NCBI GenBank assembly: GCA_000004695.1
Contig: CM000150.2
Coordinates: forward strand, 160,001 to 224,000
Origin: Dictyostelium discoideum
Lineage: Eukaryota
DNA length: 64,000 nucleotides
Direction of reading: 5' to 3'
The translations under genes and the position numbers were made by a program. The notes under the pieces were generated by a model. The model was not told where the DNA came from. It made no database searches and saw only the letters and a program-made list of their open reading frames with translations. Below are positions 7,222 to 42,242 of this stretch, piece after piece (position 1 is the first letter of the stretch; the number at the start of each line of letters is the position of its first letter).

Positions 7222-7224
7222 GAG

Positions 7225-13828: not shown

Positions 13829-13831
13829 GAG

Positions 13832-14493: not shown

Positions 14494-14593
14494 NNNNNNN
14501 NNNNNNNNNNNNNNNNNNNNNNNNNNNNNNNNNNNNNNNNNNNNNNNNNNNNNNNNNNNNNNNNNNNNNNNNNNNNNNNNNNNNNNNNNNNNN
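14494..14593. other. Assembly gap (100 N).
   Basis: Run of N characters. Skipper gag lies on one side and DIRS-1 ORF1 on the other. Confidence 0.99.
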
Positions 14594-19574: not shown

Positions 19575-20290
19575 ACCTATAAACACAGCAAAGAAAAATG
19601 CACCTTTAAAGCAAATTTAAAGTAAAGTTGATTTAAATTGGATTTAAATTGAATTTAAAGCCGCGTTTAAAAAATTCATTTTTAAGGTAATTTTTAAGGT
19701 AATTTTTAAGATATTTAAAAATGCCTTTAAAATTTGCTTAAAAATTTATTTTAAAGGTAATTTTAAAGGTGATTTTTAAGGTAATTTTTAAAATGATTTT
19801 TAAGATATTTAAAAATACCTTTAAAATTTATTTTAAATTAATTTTAAATAGGATTTAAAGTAGATTTAAAGTAGATTTAAAGTGAATTTAAATTTCCTTA
19901 ATATATAAATTTAAGGTTTTTAATAAAAAAGATCTAATTATAGATAAAAAAAATGGGGATAAAATATTCTATCATTTTTAAATTTTCATCAAAGCAATCA
20001 AATGGTCGGGGGATCGAATCCCTTTTGGTAATTTTTGAAAAAATTAAAAAAAAAAAATTTAAAAAATTTATCCGTTAAATAACGGCTTCGAACTCAGGAC
20101 CTCGCTTTTAAAGCGATTAAAAAGGTAATTTTAAAGGTAATTTTAAAGGTAATTTTAAAGGTGATTTTAAAGTAACCTTAAAAATTACCTTTCAAATTAC
20201 CTTTAAAATTGCTTTAATTCAGGACTTTAAAGCAAATTTAAATTTAATTTAAAGCGAATTTAAAGGTGGTTTTTTCTTTGCTGTGAAATA
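19575..20290. mobile_element. Non-autonomous MITE-like derivative of the CACTA-like element (about 716 bp). Termini are CACAGCAAAGAAAAATGCACCTTTAAAGCAAATTTAAA and its reverse complement; subterminal repeats are present, and an internal tRNA-like module is deletion-bearing.
   Basis: Perfect terminal inverted repeat seen directly (19575 cacagcaaag ... 20290 ctttgctgtg), flanked by AAA/AAA. Partial copies occur at 20636-21191, 32762-33135, 35500-35920 and 37640-37920. Confidence 0.65.
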
Positions 20291-20635: not shown

Positions 20636-21191
20636 AAGATGATTTTTAAGGTAATTTTTAAGATAATTTTTAAGATATTTAAAAAATACCTTTAAAATTT
20701 ATTTTAAATTAATTTTAAATAGGATTTAAAGTAGATTTAAAGTATATTTAAAGTGAATTTAAATTTCCTTTAAGTATAAATTTAAGGTTTTTAATTAAAA
20801 AGATCCATTTTTAGATCAAAAAAATGGGGATAAAATATTCTACCATATTTAAATTTTCATCAAAGCAATCAAATGGTGTAATGGTTGATGAGACTATCCT
20901 TTGATAGAGGGTCGGGGGATCGAATCCCTTTTGGTAATTTTTGAGAAATTAAAAAAAAAAATTTTAAAAAATTTATCCGTTAAATAACGGCTTCGAACCC
21001 AGGACCTCGCTTTTAAAGCGATTAAAAAGGTAATTTTAAAGGTAATTTTAAAGGTAATTTTTAAGGTGATTTTAAAGTAACCTTAAAAATTACCTTTAAA
21101 ATTACCTTAAAAATTGCTTTAATTCAGGACTTTAAATTCGCTTTAAATTAAATTTAAATTTGCTTTAAAGGTGGTTTTTTCTTCGCTGTGT
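20636..21191. mobile_element. 5'-truncated copy of the same MITE-like element, ending in ...GGTGGTTTTTTCTTCGCTGTG.
   Basis: Collinear with 19700-20290 and contains the full 73-nt tRNA-like module. Confidence 0.6.
20865..20937 (+). ncRNA. tRNA-like pol III module (73 nt) carried inside the MITE. It has an A-box-like TGGTGTAATGG, a B-box/T-arm GGGGGATCGAATCCC, an Ile-type anticodon stem-loop (ATCCT TTGATAG AGGGT), and a T5 terminator right after it. The acceptor stem does not pair, so I read it as tRNA-derived, not a bona fide tRNA.
   Basis: Seen in the sequence. Copies lie at 19994-20031 (internally deleted) and 33018-33090 (minus strand, anticodon loop TTAATAG). Confidence 0.4.
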
Positions 21192-24607: not shown

Positions 24608-26469
24608 ATGTCTACCACTGTTAATAATAATGATGCCTCTAGTAGTAGTGCCTCTGCCTCTAATAGCGCTGAATCCTTTGATTTAAGAATAAAATCAATG
24701 GAGGATCAAATCAACAACCTTTCTTTAGCCTTTACAAGATTCATGAAAGAACCTATTTTCTCATCTAATTCCAATTCACGTAGCCAACCTTCTCATGATA
24801 ACTCTGACACCGAGAATGAACAAAGTGAAGATGAATCAAGTAACAATGTCGATGTTCCAACCGATTATCAATTATCCGATACCTTACTTGGTCAGTACAA
24901 ACATATGGTAAACAATCAAGGTTTACTCGTCGAAGGAATCAAGAATCTACCATCAATGGTCAAACAAGGTTATTACATGGTAAAACTCGATATCAAGAAA
25001 GCCTACCTCCACGTTTTAGTAGATCCGCAATACAGAGACTTATTCCGCTTCGTGTGGAAAGGTTCGCACTACCGTTGGAAAACAATGCCGTTGGGGTTAT
25101 CGACAGCTCATGGTATCTTTACAATGTTGTTAAGACCTGTACTTGGAATGTTGAGAGATATCAACGTATCCGTCATCGCTTACTTGGACGATCTATTAAT
25201 CGTCGGTTCAACAAAAGAAGAATGTTTATCCAACCTCAAAAAGACGATGGACTTACTTATCAAACTAGGTTTCAAGTTAAATCTAGAAAAGAGTGTTCTC
25301 GAACCAACTCAATCAATTACGTTTCTCGGATTACAAATCGATTCAAAATCAATGAAGCTTCTTGTTCCCAAAGAAAAGAAGAAAAGTGTCATCAAGGAAA
25401 TAAGAAACTTTTTAAAACTAGATTGTTGCTCCCCAAGAAAGCTTGCTGGTTTAAAAGGAAAGCTAATTGCACTGAAAGATGCAGTTATCCCATTCAGACT
25501 TTACACTCGTAGAACAAACAAGTTTCACTCTCAGTGTCTGACTCTAGCCAATGGAGATTGGGATCAATCATTCCCCATTCCTCAAGAGGTCAAGTCAGAG
25601 ATTTCACATTGGTTAACAGTTCTAAACCAATGGAATGGAAAAGAAATCAGTCTGTTTCCAAGTTACGACTATGTTCTTACAACCGATGCCTCGGAATCAG
25701 GTGCAGGTGCCACTCTCAAGAAAGGAAACAAGGTAATCAAAACTTGGTCATTCCAGTGGTCAACAACTCAATCAAACATGTCGTCAAATCGTCGAGAAAT
25801 GCTCGCGCTGCTAATGGCCTATCAAGCGCTATGTCAGAAACTGAACAACTGCAAGCTGAAGATTCAAACCGACAACACTACCACTCTCTCTTACATCAAT
25901 CGCCAGGGTGGTCAGATACAGGATCTCTCAGTTCTGTTCGAACAACTTTGGAAACAATGCCTCAAGAAGAAAGTGAACTTGATTGGAGAGCATATTCCAG
26001 GATTCTTCAATGTAAAAGCCGACCACCTCAGTCGTCTTTCAGAGATGAATCACAAATCATCGTCCAGAGTAATCAAGAGTTACAACTGGCAACTGAAGAA
26101 GGAAGTGTTCAATCGCATCCAACTTCAATTCGGTCAAATACAGATGGATCTGTTCGCATCTCACTTCAACCATCAAACGAACAACTACTCAACAATCAGA
26201 ATGAATGCACTCCACCTCGATTGGAGTCAATGGAAGCAATGTCTGGCCTTTCCACCACCCATTCTTTTGCCTTCTATCCTGGAGAAGATGAACTCATCCA
26301 GTTCGAAGAAGGTTTCTATAATACTGATCTTCCCAATCTGGAGATCAGCAACTTGGTATCCGATGATTCAAGCTCAAGTTCCTCGTCATCATCGTCACAT
26401 GTTTCCTCAAGTACTGGGAACATTCCAAGAAGTATTGACCAAACAATCAGTAGAGTCGATACCAATCCA
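24608..26469 (+). CDS. DIRS-1 ORF with an in-frame internal deletion that fuses the ORF1 N-terminus (about 105 aa) to RT (YLDD), RNase H (TDAS...E...D) and downstream domains. It runs into the assembly gap.
   Basis: 620 aa are readable: MSTTVNNN...HMVNNQGLLVE|GIKNLPSMVKQGYY...IAYLDDLLIVG...VLTTDASESGAGA...IQTDNTTTLSYINRQGG...ADHLSR. Copy B carries another 45 aa of ORF1 after LLVE. Confidence 0.75.
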
Positions 26470-26569
26470 NNNNNNNNNNNNNNNNNNNNNNNNNNNNNNN
26501 NNNNNNNNNNNNNNNNNNNNNNNNNNNNNNNNNNNNNNNNNNNNNNNNNNNNNNNNNNNNNNNNNNNNN
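26470..26569. other. Assembly gap (100 N).
   Basis: N run between DIRS-1 copy C (+) and Skipper pol copy 3 (-). Confidence 0.99.
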
Positions 26570-29218
26570 TAATAGCCATTGAGAATTGATTTGTTCTTCC
26601 TTAATTTTATTTAAAAACGATTCATCCCATTGGAAATTATCATATTTACGAGATAAGAAATCAGCTATACCATTCTTTTTACCACTTATATGTCTTAATT
26701 CATAATCAAATTCTTTAATATATTTCATATAATTATCTTGTCTCTTTGTGAACGGTTTATCGTTTGACTTATTGATAATATATGTAAGATTTTGGTGATC
26801 AGTGTAGATTGAAACCTTTTTACCAATTAATAAATGTTGAAACTTCTTTAGAGAATCAATGATTGAAAGGAACTCTCTATCACCTATGCTGTACCTCTTT
26901 TGAGTATCAGTAAGTTTTCTACTATGAAACCAAATGACTTTGAATTTATTACCTTGAATTTGATATAATACACCTGATAATGCTTTATCACTAACATCAC
27001 AATACAAGTGAAAACTACCATTGTTTAGATTATTATTATCTGAATGGATTGGCATGTCTGTTGATGCTTTAACCTTTTCGATATCTATTGGTATGGAGTT
27101 ATCTTGTTCAATTGGAATAGCGACAATATTTTCACCTTCAAACTCTTTCTTTAGATTATTGAATTCTTTGAGTGATTCATCAGAAAGTGTTTTCTTGTTT
27201 TTTCCTTTTGATTCTTTGGAAAGGTGATAGGTTTTTTCAGCGTAATTTTCAATGTGTCTCCTGAAGAATCCAAAAAGACCTAATGCAGCTTCAGCTTCTT
27301 TGGCGTTTCTTGGTTCAGGTAACTCAGAGATAGCTCTAACCTTTGCAGCTCTTGGAGATATACCATCTTTATGAATGTGGAAACCAAGGAAATCTACTTC
27401 AGTCTTTAACATTTCACTCTTTTCTCTTGAAATGAATAATAGGTACTTTCTACAATATAGAAGCATTCTAATGATTTCAATGAAATGTACCATGTAGTCG
27501 AGTTTTGAATGAACCAAAAGATCATCAAAGTATTGTAATAAACTTTTGATTTTTCCAAATATTTCGACCATCAATCTGGCGAATGTGGATGGAGAGTTGA
27601 CTAAACCTTGTGGCATTCTAGTATATTCAAATTTACCAATATGTGTAATGAAAGCGGTGTACTTTGCGTGTTCTGGATTAATTAACACTTGGAAATAACC
27701 CATAATCATGTCAAACTTTGAGAAAAGCTTTGAATCTTTACATTGATTTAAAAGACTATCAACCGGAGTGAATGGATGATCGTCTCTAACAGTGACTTTA
27801 TTTAGTTGACGATAGTCGTGGACTACACGCCATGAATCTCTCTTCTTTAATAACATGATTGGAGATGAGTAATTTGATTCTGATCTTTTGATAATACCTA
27901 AATCTATAAATTTGAGAACCATTTCTTCGACATGTCTCTTATGATCATCTGTTGAATAATAGATTTGTTTCTTTGTTGGTTCAACATCTTGATCTTTCTT
28001 TAATATGATATTATGTATGATATTACCTCTTCTGGAATTGTTAATCTGATCTGGAATATCAGGAAGTTTATCTACTATAACATCTTCGAATGAATCATTA
28101 ATGAAATCACGTACTGCTTGTATCTCTTCTTCTTCTGGATTAGTTTTAACCAGTATATCACAAAGTTGTGATGGGATGCTTTCAACAAACTTTGTAACTT
28201 GTTCTTTGATATCTTCATCATCATCTAGTAGATTATGTGACTGTGACTGATTATCATTGGATACGGTAACATGTTTTCTTGGAGCTTTTACATTACAATG
28301 TAATTGATTCGACTGTTGATAATTAATTTTGTATGTACTGTTATTCAACTTGATTATTTTATCTTTTTGGTTAATGATAGAGTCCTTAAGGATATCATTA
28401 CCGAAAAGTACATCAATGATATCCAATTCTATAATAAAGAAGTTATGAATTTCATTGTTAACTTGTATATTGATTTGTTCAACAAACTCTTCTTTGACGT
28501 CTAGTAGCGGGAAGTTAATCTTGGCTTTCGTTTTGTGAACGTGGTTCTTCATATCTTTTGAAATCAACCTCTTATTGATTAAACTAACATTACTTCCAGT
28601 ATCGAGAATTAATTTGAATTGTTTTTCTTTGGAATGAGAGTTAATTATAATCTTGGGTTTATCCATGTTTTCTCTGTTTGGAACGATTAAACATTTGAGA
28701 GTCGGAATGAGAGCAGTATCACTTGTACCAGTACTATGTAATAATGAGATGATTGGTTTGTTTGTTTCTTTATCGAATTTAATTGTGTAAAGCAATTCAT
28801 CTTCTTCATCGTTAATTAATTCTTTACTAGAATTCAATATCTTTGGACGATTGAATATGTTTACAGTATAGTTTTTATCTTGAACATTTGTTAACTCTGT
28901 TGGAGTATTAAATTCAATCTTCTGTGGTTTATACTTCATCTCTGATTCAACAGCTTTTGGAATTGGAACGGTTGTATCAGGAACTAGTTTTATACCATAT
29001 GAGTCTTTGACGTATTCTTTAAGTTTGTTGATGTTTTTATGAACATCATGTTGCTGGCTTTGTTGATGTAACTGTTTAACAATGTTTTGATTATAAAAAG
29101 AGTTAAGAGTATAAAGTGAATCTTTGTTCACTGGGTAATCATTATCCTCAAGGTGATGATATTGTGAAATTTTATAATTTTTATTTAAAATCTTTGACTT
29201 GGACTCATCACCTTCATC
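26570..29218 (-). CDS. pol: Skipper pol, copy 3, 3'-truncated at the assembly gap (PR-RT-RH and part of IN are present).
   Basis: The first 860 aa are identical to copy 1. Confidence 0.8.
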
Positions 29219-29221
29219 GAG

Positions 29222-30385
29222 TCATTGTTGCTTTTTGGCTGATGGACCTGGATTGGCTTTGGCATCGACCGGATCAATTCTACATGTAGATGTGGAGTGA
29301 TTTGATTTACCACAATTGAGACAGTAGCCTTTGCTCTGACGGTAAACGATGAAACTGCTTCTTATCTTTTTGAGGTCTACCTTAGAGTCTTTTCTTATTT
29401 CAGGTAATATTGCAGCTCTAATCTTATCAGCTTGTGCATCAAAGGAATTCCTGTTATGAGAGTTATGATTTGGAGTAGCATGATTCTTTTTTAATGGAAA
29501 CTTCTCATCATTATTCGATGCGGAATCGGAAGGTCTTCTTCTCGAGAACTTATCAGCATTGTTAAGAACCAACTCGGTGATGGCTTCACGACACTCGGTG
29601 ATATCGGTTTGAGTGTTGAGTTTGATTGCAACATCAGTTTGTAACCAGTCTGGTACGACCATCTTTAACAAAGCAAGGATATTATTATCTAAAATTGATC
29701 TTAGATACTCTAATTGAACTTCAGCAGTACCATGGATTAGATACACCGGATTAATTACATTGTGGTAACTCATAATGGCTTCGATGTTTTTTATAACATC
29801 TTGGGCTGAGTAGCAGTTACGATGGTTAATAGCTTCGACTACTTTAGTGTTGGCAGCTTCGTAGTCAGTTTTGAATGGAACCAAAGTCTTGGATCTAAAG
29901 TTACGGTGTATTAGCTTCTTCAATGTTTCACCTTCAATTTTATCGTTGTTCTTAACTGATTCATTGTGGGTAGGTTGAAGCAATTGAAATAATTCATTTG
30001 ATGCAGCACCATTGTCCATAATGGTCTTCAAGGTTGGTTCAACACCATTCTGGGAGCAGTGGATGGTAAAGAGATTCATGAAGATGACAGCAGTGGCAGC
30101 ATTTTTTAAAGCGTCAATGGTTTTAGCTTCAATGGAATTGGTCTTTGATTTCTTTGGCACTTTCTCTCTGACTTCGACGTCGGATACATCAGTGCTTTCA
30201 GTTGAATAAATTTCATCATCGACTTCAGTGGGACGAAGAGTCTTTTTTGATTTTACTTGAACAGTAATAGCATCATCGGAGGCGGTTGTCACTTCAGTGG
30301 CACGTTTGGCGGTGGAAGACACTTTGGCTTTACGGATGGCTTTCTTTGAAGGAGTAGTAGTTGATGACATGACTTTCACCAACAA
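29222..30385 (-). CDS. gag: Skipper gag, copy 3.
   Basis: 387 aa, about 98% identical to copy 1, with CCHC present. Confidence 0.8.
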   Translation of the reverse strand: MLVKVMSSTTTPSKKAIRKAKVSSTAKRATEVTTASDDAITVQVKSKKTLRPTEVDDEIYSTESTDVSDVEVREKVPKKSKTNSIEAKTIDALKNAATAVIFMNLFTIHCSQNGVEPTLKTIMDNGAASNELFQLLQPTHNESVKNNDKIEGETLKKLIHRNFRSKTLVPFKTDYEAANTKVVEAINHRNCYSAQDVIKNIEAIMSYHNVINPVYLIHGTAEVQLEYLRSILDNNILALLKMVVPDWLQTDVAIKLNTQTDITECREAITELVLNNADKFSRRRPSDSASNNDEKFPLKKNHATPNHNSHNRNSFDAQADKIRAAILPEIRKDSKVDLKKIRSSFIVYRQSKGYCLNCGKSNHSTSTCRIDPVDAKANPGPSAKKQQ

Positions 30386-31197
30386 TTATATATAAAATTT
30401 ATTAAATATAATTTAATTTTATAATTTAATTTTATAATTTAAATTATATAATTTAATTATATAATTTAATTTAATTTATTTAATTTAATTTAATTTAATT
30501 TTTAATTGAATAATTAAATATAAGTATTAATATATGTTAACTGTTATTCCACTAATATATTTTTTTTGTGGTGTCTTTATATTATTTAATTGATAATAAA
30601 TATTATCTTAAATTATTTTAATTATAACAATGGCATCAATATAACTGTTATTCCACTAATAATTTATATTGTGGTGTCTTTATTTAACTGTTATTCCACT
30701 AATAATTTATATTGTGGTGTCTTTGTTTAACTGTTATTCCACTAATAATTTATATTGTGGTGTCTTTGTTTAACTGTTATTCCACTAATAATTTATATTG
30801 TGGTGTCTTTGTTTAACTGTTATTCCACTAATAATTTATATTGTGGTGTCTTTGTTTAACTGTTATTCCACTAATAATTTATATTGTGGTGTCTTTGTAT
30901 TTGAGCATTATTATTAAATTAATTGATACAATCTTGTTTTATATTACTTTATAAAAGATGCATGTTTACAATGTGAGTAGGAAGTGTCGTTGTACCGCCT
31001 AAGCAGTACAGCGTTAATCTTGCAAACAGAAGGGCCATTGTAATGCATTTTTATTTTGTTTTAAATACTACTGTTATTCCTCTAATCTGAAGAGTCGACT
31101 TCTTCATCATGAGGTGTCATTGTATACGAAATATAAGGATTGTATCTAATTATTTGTTTTAATGTATTTGTTTTATGTTAAAATTAGAAAAAAAAAG
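30386..31197 (-). repeat. Skipper 5' leader of copy 3, with about 6 units of the 43-bp tandem repeat (30645-30895).
   Basis: Collinear with 8389-9114 but with more repeat units. Confidence 0.7.
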
Positions 31198-31517
31198 TGT
31201 AAAAGTCACTCACACTAATCTTCAATCCATTGTCACATTTGTTCAATCTTAAATCAAACAGTCCAATATAAAAGAGATAATTAAAAGTAAGGGCGTTATG
31301 AAACTAANCCGAAAATCAGAATTTTTATTATTTTTTTTAAATTTTAATTTAATTTAATTTTTTTTAATTTAATTTTTTATTTTTTTGACTGAAAAAATAA
31401 AAAATTAAAAAATAAAAATAAAAATTAAATGAAATATTTTTACATGGAGATGCGCGAATTTGTTACGTTGTTGAGCTCATACTAACTTTAAATTAATTTA
31501 GTTTTGAGTCTCTAACA
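31198..31517 (-). repeat. Skipper 5' LTR of copy 3 (320 bp; internal deletion of about 70 bp; one N at 31308).
   Basis: Termini TGTAAAAG...CTCTAACA, followed directly by TTAAA and then CACTA-like subterminal repeats (no PPT), so this is the outer 5' end of the array. Confidence 0.75.
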
Positions 31518-31680
31518 TTAAAGGTGGTTTTAAAGGTGATTTTAAAGGTGATTTTAAAGGTCATTTAAAAAATTGCTTTTAAATTAATTTTTAAGTGACT
31601 TTTTTATAGGACTTTAAATCCACTTTTAATTTAATTTAAAGTTGCTTTAAAGGTGTAATTTTCATCGCTGTGTATTAATA
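31518..31680. repeat. Right-hand subterminal repeats and terminus (...GTGTAATTTTCATCGCTGTG) of the CACTA-like element. The 5-bp TTAAA at 31518-31522 duplicates the one at 2503-2507.
   Basis: The repeat phase continues from 2507 across the Skipper array. The terminus resembles the MITE termini. Confidence 0.55.
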
Positions 31681-31796
31681 ATGCTACAAAAATAAATAAA
31701 AAAAATTTAAAAATTATTTTAAAACTATAGTATTAAATAAAATTTTATGTGAACAATAAAATACACAGATATATTATTTTTTAATAATAAAATTTA

Positions 31797-32089
31797 TTTT
31801 TAAAGTAGAAACTTTTATTGGGAAGAATTTAAGTAAAGTGCAGAATGAGGAAATTGAAAAGCTTCTTGTGCATCTTTTCTCATTTTAGCCTTAGAGTCAA
31901 ATTTACTACTAAAATCATTTAATATTGAAATTAATCTCTTTATTAAAGGAACTGAATCTGGGTACCAGTGTGACTCTTCACCTGTTTTACAAGAGTCAAC
32001 AAACTCTTTTATGAAAATATCATTTTGATAATTTTCATAATTAATGTGGCTGAGAAAAAGAGAAAGTAAAGCAGGGGAAAACAGTATTT

Positions 32090-32139
<50 letters not shown>

Positions 32140-32761
32140 TATTTTGTAAATTTTGATTATATTAATTTATACACACTATTTCATTACCAAAAAATACTTG
32201 GCTATCGGAAATATAAACTTTAAGATTGTGGTTTTTTTCACCTTTTGAATAAATGGCTAAACTGTCAACTACTTTTGTTCTTGTGTTACTATCCTTATTA
32301 CTTACCCATTTTGTTAACCTTGCAAAAATATTTTGACTGGTACAATCTTCGTTACTACCACCAGCTTGTTTAATTATTCCAGTAATAAAGAAATTTGAAA
32401 CCTATTTATTTAAATTTATTAATTTTTTTTTTTTTTTTTTTAAAACTATTAATCTGGTAACATACATCGCCATCTGAATAGTATTTACTTTGACAAACTT
32501 TCTGAAGACTTTCGTATTCCAATATGTATGTTACACGTGGGTTTGTGGCTATTTGCACTGTTTCTTGGATTGGTGGAACAGTTGGCCTTTGAACTCTTCT
32601 AATTATTATTCTCTGGTTTTCCATTGGGTTTGGAGCATTTCAATTTCCTAATACATTACCTATTGACAAATTATTAACTGATTCATCTCCGATAGAAATA
32701 TTATTGTTTGTTCTTCTTTGGATTGGTGATTGGTTAAAATCAGGTACATTACCATTTGGTG
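31797..32761 (-). pseudogene. Inverted, 5'-truncated copy of the 3-exon gene at 1143-2112. It has an in-frame stop (GCA to TGA) in exon 1 and is cut in exon 1 by a MITE terminus at 32762.
   Basis: The reverse complement matches 1190-2235 at over 95%. ORF 32406..32624(-) reproduces ...MENQRIIIRRV(Q)RPTVPPIQETVQIATNPRVTYILEYESLQKVCQSK. Confidence 0.6.
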
Positions 32762-33135
32762 CTACACAGCGAAGAAAAAACCACCTTTAAATTCGCTTTA
32801 AATTAAATTTAAATTTGCTTTAAAGTCCTGAATTAAAGCAATTTTAAAGGTAATTTTAAAGGTAATTTTTAAGGTTACTTTAAAATCACCTTAAAAATTA
32901 CCTTTAAAATTACCTTTAAAATTACCTTTTTAATCGCTTTAAAAGCGAGGTCCTGAGTTCGAAGCCGTTATTTAACGGATAAATTTTTTAAAATTTTTTT
33001 TTTTAATTTTTCAAAAATTACCAAAAGGGATTCGATCCCCTGACCCTCTATTAAAGGGTAGTCTCATCAACCATTACACCATTTGATTGCTTTGATGAAA
33101 ATTTAAAAATGATAGAATATTTTATCCCCATTTTT
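32762..33135. mobile_element. Fragment of the MITE-like element (terminus CACAGCGAAGAAAAAACCACC at 32762) carrying the tRNA-like module on the minus strand.
   Basis: Reverse-complement match to 20860-21191. Confidence 0.6.
33018..33090 (-). ncRNA. tRNA-like pol III module (73 nt), the probable target of the adjacent TRE5-A insertion.
   Basis: Minus-strand sequence GCAATCAAATGGTGTAATGGTTGATGAGACTACCCTTTAATAGAGGGTCAGGGGATCGAATCCCTTTTGGTAA followed by TTTTT. The TRE5-A A-module starts about 48-51 bp upstream of its 5' end. Confidence 0.4.
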
Positions 33136-33138
33136 TTG

Positions 33139-33403
33139 GAGATCGAAAAAAACAAACAACAACAACAATCTCTTTTTTTGATTATTTCATTTTTCATATA
33201 AAAAAGACTTAAAAAACAAATAAATAAATAAATAAACTATTTTAAAAAGCCATCTTTTTACTTTATTGTAATTTATTATTTGTTTCGTTTTGAGAATTTT
33301 GCGTAGCAAAATTTTCAAAAAAAAAGCAAAAAATAATCAGATCGAAAAAAACAAACAACAACAATCTCTTTTTTTGATTATTTCATTTTTCATATAAAAA
33401 AGA

Positions 33404-33439
<36 letters not shown>

Positions 33440-35146
33440 GGAACCCAAGTTAATCAGAAAATTTCCAGATTTTTAACTTTTTAAAGAAAAATAAAAAAAA
33501 TAGAAAGAAAATAAGATGAAAATCACAAACAACACCACAAATATTAAGCAACACAAATGCCTACAAAAAATAAGCGAAATTGTGGATAAAACTCAATTAA
33601 AAAAAAAACAATTCAAATACGTCATAAACATCAATCACGAACCAGACGATAAAATAAAAAAAGATTTAGAAAAAAGTTTGGACAAAAAAGATGTTTTAAT
33701 CAAAAGTAATAATACATTCAAAATTCTCACAGACAGTATTAGTACAGTAATCTATTTTGTAAATATGTTTGATGCAGAATTAAAAGGACAATTTATAACC
33801 ACTATAAGACCAAAAAATATGTATACAGATTTTGATTGGTATAAATCACTCACAGAAATAGAATGGGTAATAGAAAATGAAGGATGTAAACTAATTAAAT
33901 TAGAAATTAAAGGCGAAACTCTAATTATCAAAACAGTGAAAAGAGTCGTAGAAGAATTTGACACTATCATTGAACTAGACAATCTAACATTAATTGGACA
34001 CTCCAACAAAGGATGGAGAGATCAAACCTCATTACCAGAAAATCAAGAAGAAAACAAAAATAAAAAACAATCAGATGAACAACAACCACAATCTACATCA
34101 GAACAAATACCAAAACAAGGAAAAAGAACAATCATTATCCCACCAATCACATCCTCATCTAATGATAAAACATTTATGGCCCTAGATGATACAGCTCAAA
34201 AGGTAATAGAAGCATCACTAGAAAACGTAGATGAACTAACAAGAATAGAGAATGAGATCAATACACAATCGATAAACAATCAAGAAATTAAAACAAAATC
34301 AGAAAAACCTATCGAACCACCATCTCCATACAATACACCAATAAAACAACACGGCGAAACAAAGGGACTAACAACGGAAGAAAAACTTAGAGAGGCAAAT
34401 GATATCTTCGACTTCACCAGCCCAAACACTGATGCAATAAGAAAAATAGAATTCCCACTTTCAATCCCTTCAAATCAATGGTTCTTCTCCTCTCCAATAA
34501 AACATATCATGAGTTTCAGCCCAACCTATGGTACACCATCGAAAATTATCGATTCACCAAGTAAATTGTTAAACACACCAAAAAAGAAACAACAAGACAA
34601 AACAAACAAGACCAACAAAACACCAGTCAAACCAAAATTGGGTGAATATGGACAAAAAAGCATAAAAACAAAAATGGATGAAGATATAGACAACTTCAAC
34701 AAGGAAATTCTAAAACAAATCAATAAATCAAAAAACCCCACAAACACACAAGACCAACAACACAACGAACAAAGTAAAGATCAGTTAGAAGACAAAATAA
34801 ACCAGAAACTTCAAAAGGTAGATAAAAATCTACCCCAAATAAAACTATAAAGAAAAACACAATAAGAATAGGTGTTTGGAACATCCAAGGATCCAACACC
34901 ATCCAATCTGCCAGCATAATAAACACCGTTTTAGACAACAACAAGCTGGACGCAGCACTTCTAACTGAAACAAATATAAAAACAAATAAAATTTACTCAA
35001 TAAATCAACAATATAAAAACAAAATAACACACCACGCACCAATTGATAAAACAGGACAAGGGGTGTCACAAATCATCATCAACACCCGCAATAGAACTTC
35101 CTAAACATCTCAAAAAATACAATAATTCACTCAGTACTTTCTATAA

Positions 35147-35201
<55 letters not shown>
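33139..35201 (+). mobile_element. TRE5-A (DRE)-type tRNA-gene-targeted non-LTR retrotransposon, a deletion derivative. It has one and a half copies of the 199-bp A-module (33142-33340, 33341-about 33415), a B-module, ORF1, the first 250 bp of ORF2 (APE-type endonuclease N-terminus), then a poly(A) tail.
   Basis: A 199-bp direct repeat is visible. ORF1 is 33516..34850 (444 aa). Downstream in another frame the sequence reads ...NTIRIGVWNIQGSNTIQSASIINTVLDNNKLDAALLTE (the L1/APE endonuclease start) and then breaks into A45 at about 35150-35201. Its position 48 bp upstream of a pol III module is the TRE5 hallmark. Confidence 0.65.
33516..34853 (+). CDS. TRE5-A ORF1.
   Basis: 444 aa ORF directly after the A/B modules. 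The same N-terminal 62 aa recur at 35246. Confidence 0.6.
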
Positions 35202-35204
<3 letters not shown>

Positions 35205-35446
35205 CAAGTTAATCAGAAAAATAAAAAAGATAGAAAGAAAATAAAATGAAAATCACAAACAACACCACAAATATTAAGCAACACAAATGCCTACAAAAAA
35301 TAAGCGAAATTGTGGATAAAACTCAATTAAAAAAAAAACAATTCAAATACGTCATAAACATCAATCACGAACCAGACGATAAAATAAAAAAAGATTTAGA
35401 AAAAAGTTTGGACAAAAAAGATGTTTTAATCAAAAAGACCCTGTAA
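35202..35446 (+). mobile_element. Second TRE5-A 5' fragment (B-module end plus the first 66 codons of ORF1).
   Basis: 35202-35440 is nearly identical to 33470-33710. ORF 35246..35446 reads MKITNNTTNIKQHKCLQKISEIVDKTQ... Confidence 0.6.
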
Positions 35447-35499
35447 AAAAAAAAAATAAATAAAATGAGATCTAGCATCTCAAGGAGAAGCAAATAATA

Positions 35500-35920
35500 A
35501 TTGCGTTATCCAATTCAAAAAAAAAATATCCCCATTTTTTTGTTCTAAAATTAGATCTTTTTTATTAAAAACCTTAAATTTATGTTTAAAGGAAATTTAA
35601 ATTCACTTTGAATCTACTTTAAATCTACTTTAAATCCTATTTAAAATTAATTTAAAATAAATTTTAAAGGTATTTTTAAATATCTTAAAAATTATCTTAA
35701 AAATTACCTTAAAAATCACCTTTAAAATCACCTTTAAAATTGCTTAAAAAATTATTTTAAAGCAAATTTTAAAGGCATTTTTAAATATCTTAAAAATTAC
35801 CTTAAAAATTACCTTAAAAATGAATTTTTTAAACGCGGCTTTAAATTCAATTTAAATCCAATTTAAATCAACTTTTCTTTAAATTTGCTTTAAAGGTGCA
35901 TTTTTCTTTGCTGTGTAACC
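35500..35920. mobile_element. MITE-like element fragment (inverted orientation) ending in ...AAAGGTGCATTTTTCTTTGCTGTG at 35920.
   Basis: Reverse-complement match to 19600-19990, including the ggggataaaatattct and subterminal repeats. Confidence 0.6.
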
Positions 35921-35958
35921 AATCATTTGGTACTACAAATAATAATAATTTATTATTT

Positions 35959-36984
35959 TTATTCATTTCCAATATAATTTTCTATATCCAGCATTATAGA
36001 ATAATCTTTCTTGTTTTGACACTGCATACTATCAGTGAATATTCTAAGTAAAACAATTTTATTTTTATTTTTATTTTTTAAATCTTTAAATTGTTGACCA
36101 CTTTTATAATTTGTATAAATTCCAGTTTCAAAATCTGTATCAAAATCTATTCTTTCAAAAAATTGCTTTTTATTTAATAAAGTTTCTAATACTTTTTTAA
36201 TTTCAAAATAAAAAATTGAGTGATCATAATTTTTATTTATAAATGTTTCTCCTTTTATTTGAAAATCTTCCATAAATAATTTATCCATATATTGAGGTGT
36301 GTATCTTATTTGATTTAAATTGGTTTTATTTTTGTCAATAAAACTTTTAAATTTTTCAAGTAGCTTTAAACTTATTGAGTTTTCAATTCCCAACATTAAA
36401 AATTCAATTTCAGTTTCATTTAATTTTTTTTTTGATTTTTCATTATCTAAATTATTATTTAGATTATTATTTATTGGTTCGTTTTGAGCATTTTCATTTT
36501 CATTATTTTCATTATTTTCATTATTAATGTTTGCTTCATTTTCATCTATTCTAATTTCATTGTTTTCATCTTCACTATGTACCAACCCAATTATATCATG
36601 ATTTTCTTCATTATCAATTGTTTGATTGTTTTCATTATTTTCATTATTTTCTTGATAAAAAATTTCATCTTGGTTTTGGTTACATAAATGTTTACATGGG
36701 TCATCTGGATCATTTGTTGGATATTTTATTTTTTCACCAGTAATATCCATTAATTTTTTATAAAAGCTATCTCTTTTTTGATTATTTGTAATAATTTTAT
36801 TTTGTTCATTTTTACATTTTTTGGTGTTGAAATGTCCATTTACATCATAAAATTGTTTATAAGAACGGTAATATGCAAGACAAAATGGACATATATTTTT
36901 ATGCATAATATAATGAATAATAATATTTTTAAAATTCTTTAATTTTTCTCTGCAATTAATGCATGATATGTTATTTAAATTCAT
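35959..36984 (-). CDS. C2H2 zinc-finger protein (341 aa) with an acidic N/E-rich linker. It belongs to a repeated family whose copies abut CACTA-like termini.
   Basis: CINCREKLKNFKNIIIHYIMH (C-x2-C-x12-H-x3-H) followed by CPFC...H. The C-terminal 90 aa are homologous to the pseudogene at 21192-21897. Confidence 0.5.
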   Translation of the reverse strand: MNLNNISCINCREKLKNFKNIIIHYIMHKNICPFCLAYYRSYKQFYDVNGHFNTKKCKNEQNKIITNNQKRDSFYKKLMDITGEKIKYPTNDPDDPCKHLCNQNQDEIFYQENNENNENNQTIDNEENHDIIGLVHSEDENNEIRIDENEANINNENNENNENENAQNEPINNNLNNNLDNEKSKKKLNETEIEFLMLGIENSISLKLLEKFKSFIDKNKTNLNQIRYTPQYMDKLFMEDFQIKGETFINKNYDHSIFYFEIKKVLETLLNKKQFFERIDFDTDFETGIYTNYKSGQQFKDLKNKNKNKIVLLRIFTDSMQCQNKKDYSIMLDIENYIGNE

Positions 36985-37639
36985 TTTGTTTGCTGGCTGG
37001 AAATTAAAAATAATATTTTTTTTTTTTTTTTTCCTCGAGTTTTTACGTTTTTTTTTTTTTTTTTTTTCATTTTATTCAAATTTTAGCATTATAGCAAGTA
37101 GATATATGATTTAGTACTTAGAATTTTATATTTAGAGGGATATACCCCATTTTCAAAAAATGACGGGGAACCTATGACCCTGTCTATACCTTTTTCTTTT
37201 TAAAATATTAAAAAAAAAAACTATAAAATCTGCCCAATTTATTGTAAAACTACACTAATGCAATAATATACATGTGCACTCGTTAATTGTTTATTAATTA
37301 TAAAAAATAAAAAATAAAAAATCTTTTTTTATATGTATGTTTATACTTATAATATAAATATGCAAAACAAATAATTAAATTTTTTTTTTTTTTTTTTTGA
37401 TATTTTTCGCTTTTTGAAATGAGAAGTAAAATTTAAAATAACATAATATAAAACCCAAGGCAACTGAAACACTTATTTATTATTAATTAATAAAAATAAT
37501 AATAATAGAATTCAATTGCCACTGAAACAAATAAATAAAGAATTAAAATTAATTTGGTTATCTTTTTAGTTTTTTTTTTTTTTAATTTTCTTAATTTTTT
37601 TTTTTTTTTATTTTCTTATTTTTTTTTTTTTTTTTTATT

Positions 37640-37920
37640 AAATTTGGAATAAATAGTTATTTTAAAGGTGCATTTTTCTTTGCTGTGTAATTTTAAATTA
37701 CATTAAAAATAACTTTTTTAAATTTATTATAAAGTGATTAAAACATTATTTAAAAACCGCTTTATAATAAATTTAAAAGGTCATTTTTAATATAATTATA
37801 AATGACCTTAAAAATATCTTTAAAATTACCTTTTTAAAAAGCAAATTTAAAGCCAATTTAAAGCAAATTTAAATTGTATTTGCTTTAAATTGGCTTTAAA
37901 GGTGCATTTTTCTTTGCTGT
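37640..37920. repeat. Two solo CACTA-like termini/short fragments in the same orientation (ending at 37689 and 37920).
   Basis: AAAGGTGCATTTTTCTTTGCTGTG occurs twice. Confidence 0.5.
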
Positions 37921-38889
37921 GCAAAAATGAATAATAAAAAATACTACATACATTAGGTTTATTTTTTGCAAAGTCGGAAACAATATTCATATTTTCTTAC
38001 CAAAAGTTTGATTTAAATAAATAAATTTATTAATTGAACTAAGATTATCACTAAGATTTAATACATTTAAAAAAAAAAAATTAAAAAATATAAAAAAAAA
38101 AGTTTTTATTTTTTATTTTTTATTTTTTTTTTTATCAGGAAAAAAAATAAAACAAATAATAATAACAATACTAGTAATCAATATAAAATCAATAAATTTT
38201 ATTTAAATAGAAATGAAATATTAAAATTATACCACTAGATTTTTTTTTAAAAAAAAAAAAAATAAAAAAATAAAAAATAAATAAAATAAAAAATAAATAA
38301 AAAAAAAACAAGAAAAACCATCAATAAAATGACATTTAAAACAAAATGAAATTTCAAAGAGAATTAAAAATGAAAATTAAAAAGTATTCCTGTAAAAATG
38401 GAATTTAATTTTAATTTTAATGGTATTAAAATGTTATATCTTGATTTGATTGGTCACAGCAAATGATATAAAATATATTTCCAACTCGTTTTTCTTCAAA
38501 ATAAAACAATTAAAAATGAAAAATTATCAAACACTCCAAATTATTTATTATTAAAAAAAAATAAAAAAAAAATTTTAGGAAAAAGAATTATTTTAATTTC
38601 CATTATTTTAATTTTTAAATTTTATATAATTTTGTGTATTTGTGACTGCTCAATTTATCCTATTTATCTGATTTAGATTATTTTTTTAGGTTTAAAAATA
38701 TTTCTTAACACCAACCCAATTATTTATTTGAAATATTTGAAAGGATTTAAATAAGATAACAAACTTTGATCTGAACTGTTATTGTTATTATTACCACTAT
38801 TATTAAAATTGTTTGAATTATCTAGAGGCTACAAAGAATTTTTAAAGATTGAAAAAAAATTTAATATTCCTTCTATTGTTATTTCAAAA

Positions 38890-39400
<511 letters not shown>

Positions 39401-39432
39401 TTATTATTTTTTTTTTAAAATTTAGTAAAAGA

Positions 39433-40556
<1,124 letters not shown>

Positions 40557-41216
40557 ATTTGCTGAAAATTAAAGAAAAAAATAAAAAAATTAAAAAAAAA
40601 AATAAAAAAAAATAAAAAAAAATAAAAAAAAATAAAAAAAAATAAAAAAAAAAAAAAAAAAATAAAAAAAAAAAAAAAAATAAAAAAAAAAAAATTATTT
40701 GATGTTTTGGAACTTGGACTTTAAAAATAATAAAAAAAAAAAAAAATTACAATAAATGTAAATTTAAAAATTACACTTGAAATTCTTATAAAAACAAATC
40801 TATTTTTAAAAAAAAAAAAAAAAAAAATTTAATTTGGGATATTGGTGAGATTTAAAAATTTTTTTTTAATAATATTTTTTTTATTTTTTTTTTTTTTGGA
40901 AAAATGTGAGAATTTGGGAAATATTTTTTATATTGAATAATTATTAAATTTTTTTTTTTTTTTTTTTTCTTTTTTTTTTAAAAAAAAATATTTTAATTTT
41001 TATATATAAGTTATTTATTTGTAAGTTTTTTTTTTTTTTTCTCAAAAAATATATTTAAATTTTTCTAATTATCAAACAAATAAAAAAATTATTAATTATT
41101 TATTATAAAAAATGTTTTTATAAAATAAAATAATACAGAAAAAAAAAAAAAATTTTATAAAAAACCTTTCACATTTAAAAAAAAAAAAATTCTATTTAAA
41201 AAATTCTATTTAAAAA

Positions 41217-41375
41217 ATGTCTCTTAGCAACAACCAAACCCAATTCGTAACAGTTTTCGTTCCAATCCAATTATCAATTGATGTTTTCAGAAAAATGAAC
41301 AACATCAATTCTTTTGTTAATGACAACCTCACCAACTTTCCAATTGTAACTGTTGACCAACTTATCAAAGTTGTC

Positions 41376-41436
<61 letters not shown>

Positions 41437-42154: not shown

Positions 42155-42242
<88 letters not shown>

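What the first reader, a model, noticed from the sequence alone, without database searches (positions are those of the whole stretch)
33018..33345. TRE5-A inserted 48 bp upstream of the MITE-borne tRNA-like module
The first A-module of the TRE5-A element begins at about 33139-33142, 48-51 nt from the 5' end (33090) of the minus-strand tRNA-like unit, and in the head-to-head orientation expected for TRE5 elements. This matches the canonical TRE5-A integration distance. It is therefore internal evidence that the tRNA-like module is recognised as a pol III gene, even though it does not fold into a proper cloverleaf.
Basis: partly seen in the sequence, partly recalled or inferred. Interest (0 to 1): 0.55.

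Follow-up and report, generated by a model that had tools for sequence, protein, structure and literature searches.

The report
Retrotransposon landed beside transposon-borne tRNA-gene mimic
A Dictyostelium retrotransposon that normally inserts about 47 bp upstream of tRNA genes has inserted at that distance from a tRNA-gene look-alike carried by a small DNA transposon, which suggests the look-alike recruits the RNA polymerase III machinery; a similar case was published in 2022.

Summary
The window is D. discoideum AX4 chromosome 1. A 2,388-bp ORF2-less TRE5-A (33139-35526, +) sits inside a 747-bp TIR element (MITE: 32765-33138 + 35543-35915). A perfect 16-bp target-site duplication flanks it (33123-33138 / 35527-35542).

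The element's first base is 48 nt from G33090, and the two 5' ends face each other. G33090 heads a minus-strand module with a tRNA-gene 5'-flank box, an A box, a GTC-signature B box and T-run terminators. The module is not a foldable tRNA.

Three results make this targeted rather than chance:
- Another D. discoideum assembly has the orthologous locus with the MITE intact and empty, 747/747 identical.
- A second MITE copy elsewhere carries an independent TRE5-A at the same spot with different junctions.
- Sixteen control TRE5-A copies lie 41-57 nt (median 47.5) from real tRNA genes.

This rests on the published TRE5-A mechanism, not on a direct test, and transcription of the module is untested.

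It is not new in kind. A/B-box loci without tRNA context are published TRE5-A targets on the rDNA palindrome (2017) and in the DNA transposon DDT-B (2022).

The parts
32765..33138 (-). MITE copy C, module-side arm (374 bp), ending in the TIR ...AAAGGTGGTTTTTTCTTCGCTGTG (32765-32788 on the - strand)
   Evidence: TIR search. Alignment with copies A, B, L006 and L008. 100% identical to the intact allele L008.
35543..35915 (-). MITE copy C, other arm (373 bp), with the TIR CACAGCAAAGAAAAATGCACC (read on the - strand from 35915)
33018..33090 (-). tRNA-gene-like module, with G33090 as the '+1' equivalent. It is not a foldable tRNA.
   Evidence: Sequence. ARAGORN and Rfam negative. Fold z = -0.3. 50 of 73 positions identical to tRNA-Val(AAC), about the same as different real tRNAs share with each other (mean 47).
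33091..33101 (-). tRNA-gene 5'-flank box (TTTTCATCAAA immediately before +1 G on the module strand)
   Evidence: The same TTTGATGAAA(A/T) string abuts +1 of real tRNA genes in L001, L002, L021 and L022, with weaker versions in L004 and L027.
33071..33081 (-). A box TGGTGTAATGG (module positions +10 to +20)
   Evidence: Fits the D. discoideum motif TRRYNNARYNG (PMC5391098) perfectly. Regex scan.
33029..33044 (-). B box with the internal-type signature: GTC-AGGG-GATCGAATC (core 33029-33037, positions +54 to +62)
   Evidence: Fits GTCnnnnGTTCRAnYC (PMC3159450) except T->A at core position 2. It is 33 nt after the A box, within the published 32-57 range.
33013..33026 (-). T runs on the module strand (T4 at 33026-33023, T5 at 33017-33013): candidate pol III terminators
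   Evidence: Read from the sequence.
33123..33138 (.). Target-site duplication, left copy: TATCCCCATTTTTTTG
   Evidence: Present once in the empty allele L008.
35527..35542 (.). Target-site duplication, right copy
33139..35526 (+). TRE5-A, ORF2-less (TRE5-A.2-type), 2,388 bp. Layout: A-module, partial A-module, poly(A), B-module, ORF1, short ORF2 remnant, poly(A), 3' B-module with an ORF1 5' fragment, C-module, A10 tail.
   Evidence: The same architecture is found at 97-100% identity in L001-L007. The element is absent from orthologous L008.
33139..33339 (+). First A-module (5' end GAGATCGAAAAAAAC)
   Evidence: Direct repeat with 33340 onward. 100% identical to the A-modules of L003, L005 and L006.
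33340..33410 (+). Partial second A-module, running into a poly(A) tract
33516..34850 (+). TRE5-A ORF1 (444 aa)
   Evidence: Exact match to AX4 proteins DDB_G0277285 and DDB_G0293690, and 98-99% identical to other AX4 TRE5-A ORF1 proteins.
35517..35526 (+). Oligo(A) tail at the 3' junction
32950..32967 (+). Second B-box unit on the opposite strand (GGTCCTGAGTTCGAAGCC; core GTTCGAAGC at 32957-32965), about 52 bp downstream of the module
   Evidence: Fits GTCnnnnGTTCRANNC. It reads GTTCGAATC in the L028 copy. No A box lies upstream of it.
20636..21190 (+). MITE copy B (truncated on the non-module side). Intact module at 20865-20937. No TRE insertion.
19584..20285 (+). MITE copy A (full TIRs). A 35-nt deletion in the module removes the A box and the anticodon-like hairpin; the B box is kept. 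No TRE insertion.

Best explanation
A 747-bp non-autonomous TIR DNA transposon (MITE) of D. discoideum carries a decayed tRNA gene together with its promoter context. The context comprises the species-typical 5'-flank box, a +1 G, an A box, an internal-type B box (GTC signature, with A at the T54-equivalent position) and T-run terminators.

Inferred mechanism. The module still recruits TFIIIC through the A and B boxes. TFIIIC then places TFIIIB about 30-50 bp upstream of the +1 G.

Shown. An ORF2-less TRE5-A was inserted by target-primed reverse transcription 48 nt upstream of the module, head-to-head with it, producing a 16-bp TSD. By the published model, ORF2 protein is supplied in trans and the ORF1 protein binds TFIIIB.

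The insertion is recent. It is present in AX4 and absent from another D. discoideum assembly. The same site in a second MITE copy was hit independently. The MITE therefore spreads extra TRE5-A landing pads around the genome. Whether the module is actually transcribed is not known.
For: Insertion anatomy. TSD, oligo(A) tail and a full-length 5' end are all present.

Empty-site allele. L008 is colinear with the window over 28000-33138 and 35527-43000 at 99.6-99.8% identity. Its MITE is 747/747 identical to the window's MITE with the insert removed.

Independent second event. L006 is a different MITE copy with different flanks. Its left junction is ...CCCCAT13|GAGATCG, against ...CCCCAT7G|GAGATCG in the window. 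Its right junction is A10|TCCCC, against A10|TATCCCC. By its TSD, the insertion is 47 nt from the G.

Controls. Sixteen TRE5-A copies at ARAGORN-called tRNA genes lie 41-57 nt away, median 47.5, all head-to-head. Their TSDs are 13-17 bp and start 29-34 nt from +1; the values are 32 in the window and 34 in L006.

Promoter features. The A box matches TRRYNNARYNG. The B box matches GTCnnnnGTTCRAnYC with one mismatch. The spacing is 33 nt. The 5'-flank box is shared with real tRNA genes.

No alternative target. There is no tRNA gene anywhere in the window.

Literature. TRE5-A needs a functional B box. Its ORF1 protein binds TFIIIB. 80% of integrations fall at 47+/-3 bp. A/B-box loci without tRNA context on the rDNA palindrome are hit at 45-47 bp (PMC5391098; PMC3159450). 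An A/B-box motif in the DNA transposon DDT-B carries a natural TRE5-A.2 at 46 bp and also received a new tagged insertion (PMC9012585).
Against: There is no direct evidence here of TFIIIC/TFIIIB binding or of a transcript.

The B-box core is GATCGAATC, which fails the strict GTTCRANNC motif at position 2. From general knowledge, eukaryotic initiator tRNA genes also have A at this position and are pol III genes.

The A box starts at +10 from the G rather than +8. The module therefore does not satisfy the published '+1 G 7 bp upstream of the A box' rule. Measured from the A box, the two insertions are 1-3 nt further away than in the controls.

MITE copy B in the window and the copy in L028 have intact modules and are unoccupied. 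This is compatible with the finding that only 24% of real tRNA genes are occupied, but it means the sample is small.

L006 was found through a TRE5-A look-up, so occupancy frequencies are biased.
Confidence: 0.85

Rival explanations
1. The module is an ETC-like factor-binding site only. It assembles TFIIIC (and enough TFIIIB to attract TRE5-A) but is not productively transcribed, so it is 'recognised' by the pol III machinery without being a pol III gene.
For: The predicted RNA has no acceptor stem and folds no better than shuffled sequence. The B box is off-consensus and the A box is 2 nt out of register. tRNAscan-SE lists only three pseudogenes in the genome, and pseudogene sequences were not detected among mature tRNAs (PMC13063481). 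Published authors draw the same analogy with ETC sites for the rDNA B boxes (PMC3159450).
Against: The module keeps a +1 G, the 5'-flank box and T4/T5 terminators at the right places, so it has what a type-2 pol III unit needs. TRE5-A targeting needs TFIIIB at the start site, which is the step immediately before polymerase recruitment.
Confidence: 0.3
2. Coincidence. TRE5-A landed here for reasons unrelated to the module, for example insertion into AT-rich repeat DNA or attraction by neighbouring retroelements in this transposon-rich region.
For: The window is a transposon cluster containing three Skipper-type LTR elements and DIRS-1 fragments.
Against: Two independent insertions lie within 1-2 nt of each other in two MITE copies at different loci. 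Distance, orientation and TSD geometry match the tRNA-gene controls. All other resolvable sampled TRE5-A loci sit at tRNA genes or in tandem behind elements that do. By my arithmetic, the chance probability of the geometry is about 1e-4 per event.
Confidence: 0.02
3. One ancestral event. The MITE-plus-TRE5-A composite arose once and was then copied or transposed as a 3.1-kb unit, so the window and L006 are not independent.
For: Copy C and L006 are each other's closest MITE relatives: 3 substitutions and one 12-nt repeat unit apart. Both inserts are the same TRE5-A.2 type with the same 5' end.
Against: In the assembly that holds L006, the orthologous copy-C locus (L008) is an intact, empty MITE. 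Both junctions differ between the two inserts: the TSD is 16 nt in the window and 13 nt in L006, the 3' junction is shifted by 2 nt, and L006 has 6 extra T at the 5' junction.
Confidence: 0.02
4. Targeting is driven by a B box alone, either the module's or the inverted perfect-core B box 52 bp downstream. The A box and the other tRNA-like features are irrelevant.
For: Isolated B boxes are principal TRE5-A targets in the TRE-trap assay (PMC5391098). The MITE carries two B-box units.
Against: Isolated B boxes work at less than 1% of tRNA-gene efficiency. On the rDNA palindrome only loci with a good A box were hit. The inverted B box would direct an insertion to the other side and in the other orientation. 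Copy A, which lacks the A box but keeps both B boxes, is unoccupied (n = 1).
Confidence: 0.08

Closest known systems
[quoted passage not shown]
   Same: A natural TRE5-A.2 lies 46 bp upstream of an A/B-box motif inside a D. discoideum DNA transposon. The motif lies within the first 428 nt of the transposon and is read toward its terminus ('428-1'). The geometry here is the same: +1 G at nt 326 and the insertion after nt 374, both counted from the module-side terminus. The published site also took a new tagged TRE5-A insertion.
   Different: [quoted passage not shown] This window is on chromosome 1, and the carrier is a complete 747-bp MITE with both TIRs. Whether the MITE arm is homologous to DDT-B nt 1-428 (for example as the short relative DDT-S) could not be tested, because no DDT consensus is available in the tools. 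The paper describes only an 'A/B-box arrangement'. The 5'-flank box, GTC signature, terminators, tRNA-level similarity and the empty-site allele are shown here.
A/B-box loci on the extrachromosomal rDNA palindrome (Spaller, Groth, Gloeckner & Winckler 2017, PLoS One, PMC5391098; Siol et al. 2011, PMC3159450)
   Same: These are non-tRNA sequences with tRNA-type A and B boxes that are hit by natural and tagged TRE5-A at 45-47 bp from a '+1 G', as if they were tRNA genes. They are interpreted as pol III complex assembly sites.
   Different: Those loci show no other similarity to tRNA genes, match the B-box consensus exactly, have the G 7 bp before the A box, and are fixed segments of the rDNA element. 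Here the unit rides on a mobile element, resembles a whole tRNA gene with its flanks, has one B-box mismatch, and has the G 9 bp before the A box.
Canonical TRE5-A integration at tRNA genes
   Same: The distance (47+/-3 bp), strict head-to-head orientation, 10-16-bp TSDs and oligo(A) tail all match. In-session controls L001-L027 give 41-57 nt, median 47.5.
   Different: The target is not a tRNA gene by ARAGORN, Rfam or folding.
tRNA-derived SINEs, and yeast ETC / fission-yeast COC sites (general knowledge)
   Same: A mobile or dispersed sequence carries internal type-2 pol III promoter boxes. Such sites are TFIIIC-bound without coding for a tRNA.
   Different: SINEs move by retrotransposition, lack TIRs and end in A-rich tails. 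This carrier has TIRs and subterminal repeats and moves as DNA. ETC and COC sites are not transposon-borne.

Membership tests
Functional tRNA gene | Cloverleaf with an acceptor stem; detected by tRNA finders or a covariance model | tested here: not met
   ARAGORN finds 0 genes in the window. Rfam tRNA gives no hit at gathering score or at E<=10. The MFE fold lacks an acceptor stem, z = -0.3, against -2.4 and -2.8 for real tRNAs.
Type-2 pol III promoter locus ('A/B-box locus' sensu Spaller 2017) | A box matching TRRYNNARYNG | tested here: met
   TGGTGTAATGG at 33081->33071.
Type-2 pol III promoter locus ('A/B-box locus' sensu Spaller 2017) | B box matching GTTCRANNC (internal type: GTCnnnnGTTCRAnYC) | tested here: not met
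   The core is GATCGAATC, with T->A at position 2. The GTC signature and all other positions fit. The strict regex finds no A/B locus in the window; relaxing this one position finds only the two MITE modules.
Type-2 pol III promoter locus ('A/B-box locus' sensu Spaller 2017) | A-B spacing of 30-60 bp | tested here: met
   33 nt lie between the boxes; the distance is 44 nt start to start.
Type-2 pol III promoter locus ('A/B-box locus' sensu Spaller 2017) | +1 G located 7 bp upstream of the A box | tested here: not met
   The G preceded by the 5'-flank box is 9 nt upstream, so the A box starts at +10. The base 7 nt upstream is an A at 33088.
Type-2 pol III promoter locus ('A/B-box locus' sensu Spaller 2017) | Targeted by TRE5-A at about 47 bp, head-to-head | tested here: met
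   48 nt in the window and 47 nt in L006, two independent events.
Type-2 pol III promoter locus ('A/B-box locus' sensu Spaller 2017) | Occupancy by TFIIIC/TFIIIB/pol III; a transcript | not testable with these tools
   Requires ChIP or RNA data.
TRE5-A retrotransposon (TRE5-A.2-type) | A-module 5' end, TRE5-A ORF1, B- and C-modules, oligo(A) tail, no ORF2 | tested here: met
   ORF1 is identical to AX4 TRE5-A ORF1 proteins. The whole 2.39-kb architecture is shared with L001-L007. Only a short ORF2 remnant is present.
TRE5-A retrotransposon (TRE5-A.2-type) | Variable TSD of about 10-16 bp made by target-primed reverse transcription | tested here: met
   A perfect 16-bp TSD. Controls have 13-17 bp. 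The published range is 10-16 bp.
MITE / non-autonomous TIR DNA transposon | Terminal inverted repeats, small size, no coding capacity, several copies | tested here: met
   TIRs CACAGC(A/G)AAGAAAAA.... Size 747-760 bp. Copies A, B and C in the window, plus L006 and L028, plus solo ends at 21907, 31672, 37687 and 37921. No ORF of 40 aa or more was listed inside the module-side arm.
MITE / non-autonomous TIR DNA transposon | Target-site duplication of fixed length | tested here: inconclusive
   Flanks are compatible with a 2-bp TSD: TA for copy C, CA for L006, AA for copy A. The L028 insertion into TRE5-A ORF1 shows no clean duplication.
MITE / non-autonomous TIR DNA transposon | Evidence of mobility (insertion polymorphism or nesting) | tested here: met
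   In L028 a 760-bp copy interrupts a TRE5-A ORF1 that is uninterrupted in all other copies.
DDT-B / DDT-S transposon family | Sequence homology to the DDT-B consensus (nt 1-428 hold its A/B-box motif) | not testable with these tools
   No DDT consensus is held. Only the geometry described in PMC9012585 agrees. Glockner et al. 2001 could not be read.
tRNA-derived SINE | Retrotransposed unit with an internal pol III promoter, an A-rich or LINE-derived tail, and no TIRs | tested here: not met
   The carrier has TIRs and subterminal inverted 12-bp repeats, and no A-tail at its ends.

The most novel reading that the evidence does not exclude
A currently or recently mobile MITE family carries a complete tRNA-gene mimic: flank box, A box, B box, terminator, plus a second inverted B box. 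It thereby seeds functional TFIIIC/TFIIIB assembly sites at new chromosomal positions. These sites would act as portable landing pads for tRNA-gene-targeting retrotransposons. They might also act as ETC-like chromatin elements, or serve the MITE's own regulation or targeting. This would mean a DNA transposon and a retrotransposon reciprocally shape each other's distribution; both nesting orders are seen here, TRE5-A inside the MITE and the MITE inside TRE5-A.
Probability: 0.3. Interest if true: 0.6.

Novelty: new member of a known kind. Interest (0 to 1): 0.4.

Why it matters
TRE5-A insertions are used in the field as in-vivo reporters of pol III transcription-complex assembly. This locus adds a clean natural example: an empty allele and a filled allele, a perfect TSD, and a second independent hit. 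It shows that a transposon-borne tRNA-gene mimic is read as a target.

It extends the single published DDT-B case to a compact, recently mobile MITE on another chromosome. It shows that the motif is a whole decayed tRNA gene with its flanks, not just two boxes. It also offers natural variants for dissecting what positions TFIIIB and TRE5-A: an A54-type B box, an A box 2 nt out of register, and a copy with the A box deleted.

In practice, it shows that tRNA finders miss a class of pol III-type sites that could affect retrotransposon mapping and the annotation of the Dictyostelium pol III targets. It does not change the established model.

Tried and rejected
Identity of the module.
- ARAGORN and Rfam, at gathering score and at E<=10, found no tRNA or other curated RNA at the module.
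- The only Rfam hits were sub-threshold matches of the MITE's long AT-rich hairpin (32833-32942) to hairpin miRNA families. I treat these as a generic consequence of the inverted repeats.

Is this the published chromosome-5 DDT-B locus? I rejected this. Three window ORFs are exact AX4 proteins on the 4,923,596-bp chromosome 1.

Is L006 the orthologue of the window locus? I rejected this. Its flanks differ, and the true orthologue is L008.

Look-ups that returned nothing.
- AX4 reference proteins P0001 and P0004 are not in the gene-position index, so the AX4 genome itself could not be surveyed.
- Glockner et al. 2001 and Eichinger et al. 2005 are not held, so DDT-B, DDT-S and thug descriptions could not be read.
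- Literature searches for a MITE with a tRNA-like unit in Dictyostelium found nothing beyond PMC9012585.
- A metagenome scan for the module found nothing.

Other checks.
- The solo TIR at 21907 is not the end of an autonomous partner element; the match ends after 37 nt.
- No TRE3 or DGLT-A insertion was seen at any module. All copies read are intact MITE sequence downstream of the module.
Full report
**What is at the coordinates**

The window is AT-rich Dictyostelium DNA. Three of its ORFs are exact matches to D. discoideum AX4 proteins: DDB_G0268476, DDB_G0267338 and DDB_G0267334. All three lie on the 4,923,596-bp chromosome 1. The neighbourhood is a transposon cluster with three Skipper-type LTR elements and DIRS-1 fragments, next to host genes such as a Nup93/Nic96 homologue.

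On the minus strand, 33090->33018 reads GCAATCAAATGGTGTAATGGTTGATGAGACTACCCTTTAATAGAGGGTCAGGGGATCGAATCCCTTTTGGTAA. From 33139 rightwards on the plus strand lies a TRE5-A. Its parts, in order, are:
- an A-module (33139-33339);
- a partial second A-module (from 33340);
- a poly(A) tract and a B-module;
- ORF1 (33516-34850, 444 aa), identical to annotated AX4 TRE5-A ORF1 proteins;
- a short ORF2 remnant;
- a 3' B-module with an ORF1 5' fragment, a C-module and an A10 tail ending at 35526.

The same 2.39-kb ORF2-less architecture is found at 97-100% identity at seven places in a second assembly. It is therefore the standard non-autonomous TRE5-A.2 type, not a local rearrangement.

**The carrier is a MITE, and TRE5-A inserted into it**

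The tRNA-like unit is repeated in the window: there is a full copy at 20865-20937 (+) and a deleted copy around 20010. All copies lie inside a ~750-bp element. It has terminal inverted repeats (CACAGC(A/G)AAGAAAAA... / ...TTTTTCTT(C/T)GCTGTG) and subterminal 12-bp repeats in inverted orientation.

Copy C is split by the TRE5-A into 32765-33138 and 35543-35915. The insert is flanked by a perfect 16-bp duplication, TATCCCCATTTTTTTG, at 33123-33138 and 35527-35542.

A look-up of the neighbouring gene's orthologue returned locus L008 from assembly GCA_054883475.1. L008 is colinear with the window over 28000-33138 and 35527-43000 at 99.6-99.8% identity. It lacks exactly the TRE5-A and one TSD copy. 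With the insert removed, the window's MITE is 747/747 identical to the L008 MITE. This is a textbook pair of filled and empty sites. The MITE was there first, the retrotransposon came later, and the insertion is polymorphic between D. discoideum genomes.

**Distance, orientation and controls**

The TSD fixes the first base of the element at 33139. Six other full-length copies begin with the same GAGATCGAAAAAAAC. Exactly 48 nt separate it from G33090, and the two 5' ends face each other.

As controls I used TRE5-A ORF1 look-ups that returned 28 loci in GCA_054883475.1. In 16 of them an ARAGORN tRNA gene directly precedes the first A-module. All are head-to-head, with 41-57 nt between tRNA +1 and the element (median 47.5; 13 of 16 within 44-50). 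TSD lengths in the controls are 13-17 bp, and the TSD begins 29-34 nt from +1. For the window the values are 16 bp and 32 nt.

The remaining loci fall into these groups:
- downstream members of TRE5-A tandems, or long A-module arrays whose start lies outside the fetched DNA;
- one rearranged locus (L017);
- L028, which sits at a tRNA-Phe gene;
- L006.

The literature gives the same picture. 80.2% of 1,003 tagged integrations fall at 47+/-3 bp, orientation is strict, and TSDs are 10-16 bp (PMC5391098; PMC9012585).

**A second, independent hit**

L006 lies about 30 kb from one end of a 5.58-Mb chromosome. It is a different copy of the same MITE: the flanks outside the TIRs differ, there are three substitutions, and there is one extra 12-nt repeat unit. 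It also carries a TRE5-A.2 at the same place, but the junctions differ:
- The left junction is ...CCCCAT13|GAGATCG, against ...CCCCAT7G|GAGATCG in the window.
- The right junction is A10|TCCCC, against A10|TATCCCC in the window.
- This gives a 13-nt TSD that starts 2 nt further from the module, with six extra T at the 5' junction.

Because the same assembly holds the empty copy-C allele (L008), the two insertions cannot descend from one event. Two independent integrations 47 and 48 nt upstream of the same G, in two MITE copies, exclude chance.

**What the module is**

It is not a tRNA gene. ARAGORN and the Rfam tRNA model find nothing, even at E<=10. The RNA folds into three hairpins without an acceptor stem, at z = -0.3; real tRNAs from the control loci give z = -2.4 and -2.8. 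tRNAscan-SE reports only three tRNA pseudogenes genome-wide (PMC13063481), so these units are not annotated.

It does keep the parts a type-2 pol III unit needs:
- An A box, TGGTGTAATGG, fits the D. discoideum motif TRRYNNARYNG perfectly.
- Thirty-three nt later comes GTC-AGGG-GATCGAATC. This is the internal-type B-box signature GTCnnnnGTTCRAnYC with one deviation, A for T at core position 2. From general knowledge, eukaryotic initiator tRNA genes have A at the same position, so this variant is not expected to abolish TFIIIC binding.
- T4 and T5 runs follow at +65 and +74.
- Directly upstream of the G lies TTTTCATCAAA. The same string abuts +1 of real tRNA genes in L001, L002, L021 and L022.

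Overall the module shares 50 of 73 positions with tRNA-Val(AAC), about what different genuine tRNAs share with each other (mean 47). About 52 bp downstream, roughly where 66% of D. discoideum tRNA genes have an external B box, there is a second B-box unit, but it is on the opposite strand (GGTCCTGAGTTCGAAGCC, 32950-32967).

The simplest reading is a decayed tRNA gene captured together with its flanks.

With the strict published B-box motif, no A/B arrangement exists in the window. Relaxing the single deviant position finds only the two MITE modules (shuffles give a mean of 0.27).

One detail does not fit the published rule that +1 lies 7 bp before the A box. Here the G that follows the flank box is 9 nt before it. 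The two insertions agree with the controls when measured from that G (47-48 nt against a median of 47.5). Measured from the A box they are 1-3 nt further away than the controls. With n = 2 this is only a hint that upstream sequence, and not the A box alone, helps to place TFIIIB.

**Mechanism**

Shown here: a TRE5-A.2 retrotransposed into a MITE, with canonical geometry relative to a unit bearing A and B boxes. This happened twice independently.

Established by others: TRE5-A needs a functional B box. An isolated B box works at less than 1% efficiency. ORF1 protein binds TFIIIB subunits. Non-tRNA A/B-box loci are targeted like tRNA genes.

[quoted passage not shown] ORF2 protein would be supplied in trans.

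Not known: whether pol III transcribes the module. An ETC-like, factor-binding-only state is the main live alternative, and it does not conflict with the targeting result.

**Comparison with what is known**

This is a known kind of event. Spaller et al. [quoted passage not shown]

Barth et al. 2022 reported a natural TRE5-A.2 46 bp upstream of an A/B-box motif in a rearranged DDT-B fragment ('nt 428-1 + 3291-1646'). [quoted passage not shown] They also reported a new tagged insertion there, and asked whether the motif relates to DDT-B replication.

The geometry agrees with the MITE arm: +1 G at nt 326 and the insertion after nt 374 from the terminus, read toward nt 1. The MITE may therefore be a short DDT-type derivative. 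I could not test this, because no DDT consensus or description is available in the tools.

The present locus is on chromosome 1, so it is a different site. What is added here:
- a filled/empty allele pair;
- a second independent hit;
- the recognition that the motif is a whole tRNA-gene mimic carried by a compact MITE;
- evidence that this MITE has been mobile recently. In L028 a 760-bp copy interrupts a TRE5-A ORF1 that is intact in all other copies, so both nesting orders occur.

**Verdict**

Novelty is that of a new member of a known kind. Interest is moderate (0.4): a useful, clean natural example for specialists, with some mechanistic handles, but not a surprise.

Noticed in passing
L028:3387-4146 (GCA_054883475.1 CM142510.1:2971263-2979358): A 760-bp copy of the same MITE (736/760 identical to window copy C) is inserted inside a TRE5-A ORF1. 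That TRE5-A itself sits at a tRNA-Phe gene. The gene caller spliced the MITE out as an intron, giving a 464-aa product. This is reciprocal nesting and evidence of recent MITE mobility. The junctions show no clean TSD.
   Followed up: partly
window 19584-20285 (copy A), module region about 19995-20030: This MITE copy has a 35-nt internal deletion that removes the A box and the anticodon-like hairpin of the module but keeps the B box. It is a natural A-box-less variant and is unoccupied by TRE5-A.
   Followed up: partly
window 21127-21166 (copy B): Near the module-side TIR, the segment between two palindromic CTTTAAA/TTTAAAG motifs is inverted relative to the other MITE copies.
   Followed up: no
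window 32833-32942: A near-perfect 52-nt-arm hairpin built from inverted 12-bp subterminal repeats (TTTAAAGGTAAT). It gives sub-threshold Rfam hits to hairpin miRNA families such as mir-548 (42.6 bits; gathering score 90). thug-S transposon-derived miRNAs are published for D. discoideum. Whether this MITE yields small RNAs is unknown.
   Followed up: no
window 32950-32967 (+): A second B-box unit with the GTC signature lies on the strand opposite to the module, about 52 bp downstream of it. In L028 its core is the perfect GTTCGAATC. No A box accompanies it.
   Followed up: partly
window 31673-32764 and 1165-2267: The 1.1 kb flanking the MITE's module-side TIR is itself a repeat: a 95% identical copy lies in opposite orientation at 1165-2267. 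It is bounded at 31672 by a diverged TIR end of a related element (AAAGGTGTAATTTTCATCGCTGTG). In the other copy the sequence continues ...GGTGCTA|TAAAATTTGC without a MITE.
   Followed up: partly
window 35959-36984 (-): DDB_G0268476, the C2H2-type protein gene abutting the MITE, belongs to a family with 8 members at >=90% identity on chromosomes 1, 2, 5 and 6. It is probably transposon-encoded, possibly DDT-type.
   Followed up: no
MITE flanks: window 32763-32764 / 35916-35917; 19582-19583 / 20286-20287; L006 2246-2247 / 5391-5392: The flanks are compatible with 2-bp target-site duplications (TA, AA, CA). The TIRs start with CACAG and the element has many subterminal repeats, which is reminiscent of CACTA-type elements. 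The superfamily was not determined.
   Followed up: no
L014, L026, L029 (upstream of ORF1): Tandem arrays of at least 15 A-modules (199-bp period) precede some TRE5-A copies. Most copies have one or two A-modules.
   Followed up: no
L017:2380-2640: A TRE5-A is preceded by the tRNA-gene 5'-flank motif (TGATGAAAATC...), but the tRNA gene itself is replaced by a truncated TRE ORF2 in opposite orientation. This is a rearranged target locus.
   Followed up: no
window 30640-30900: About six tandem copies of a 43-bp unit (TGTTATTCCACTAATAATTTATATTGTGGTGTCTTTGTTTAAC) lie next to the Skipper-type gag ORF, presumably in the LTR region. There is also a single N at about 31308.
   Followed up: no
window 24608-26572 and 41217-43254: DIRS-1-type ORFs (RT, RNase H and Dam-like methyltransferase domains) lie among three Skipper-type elements (2941-8388, 9548-15155, 26447-30385). 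This composition is typical of a D. discoideum centromere-proximal repeat cluster.
   Followed up: no
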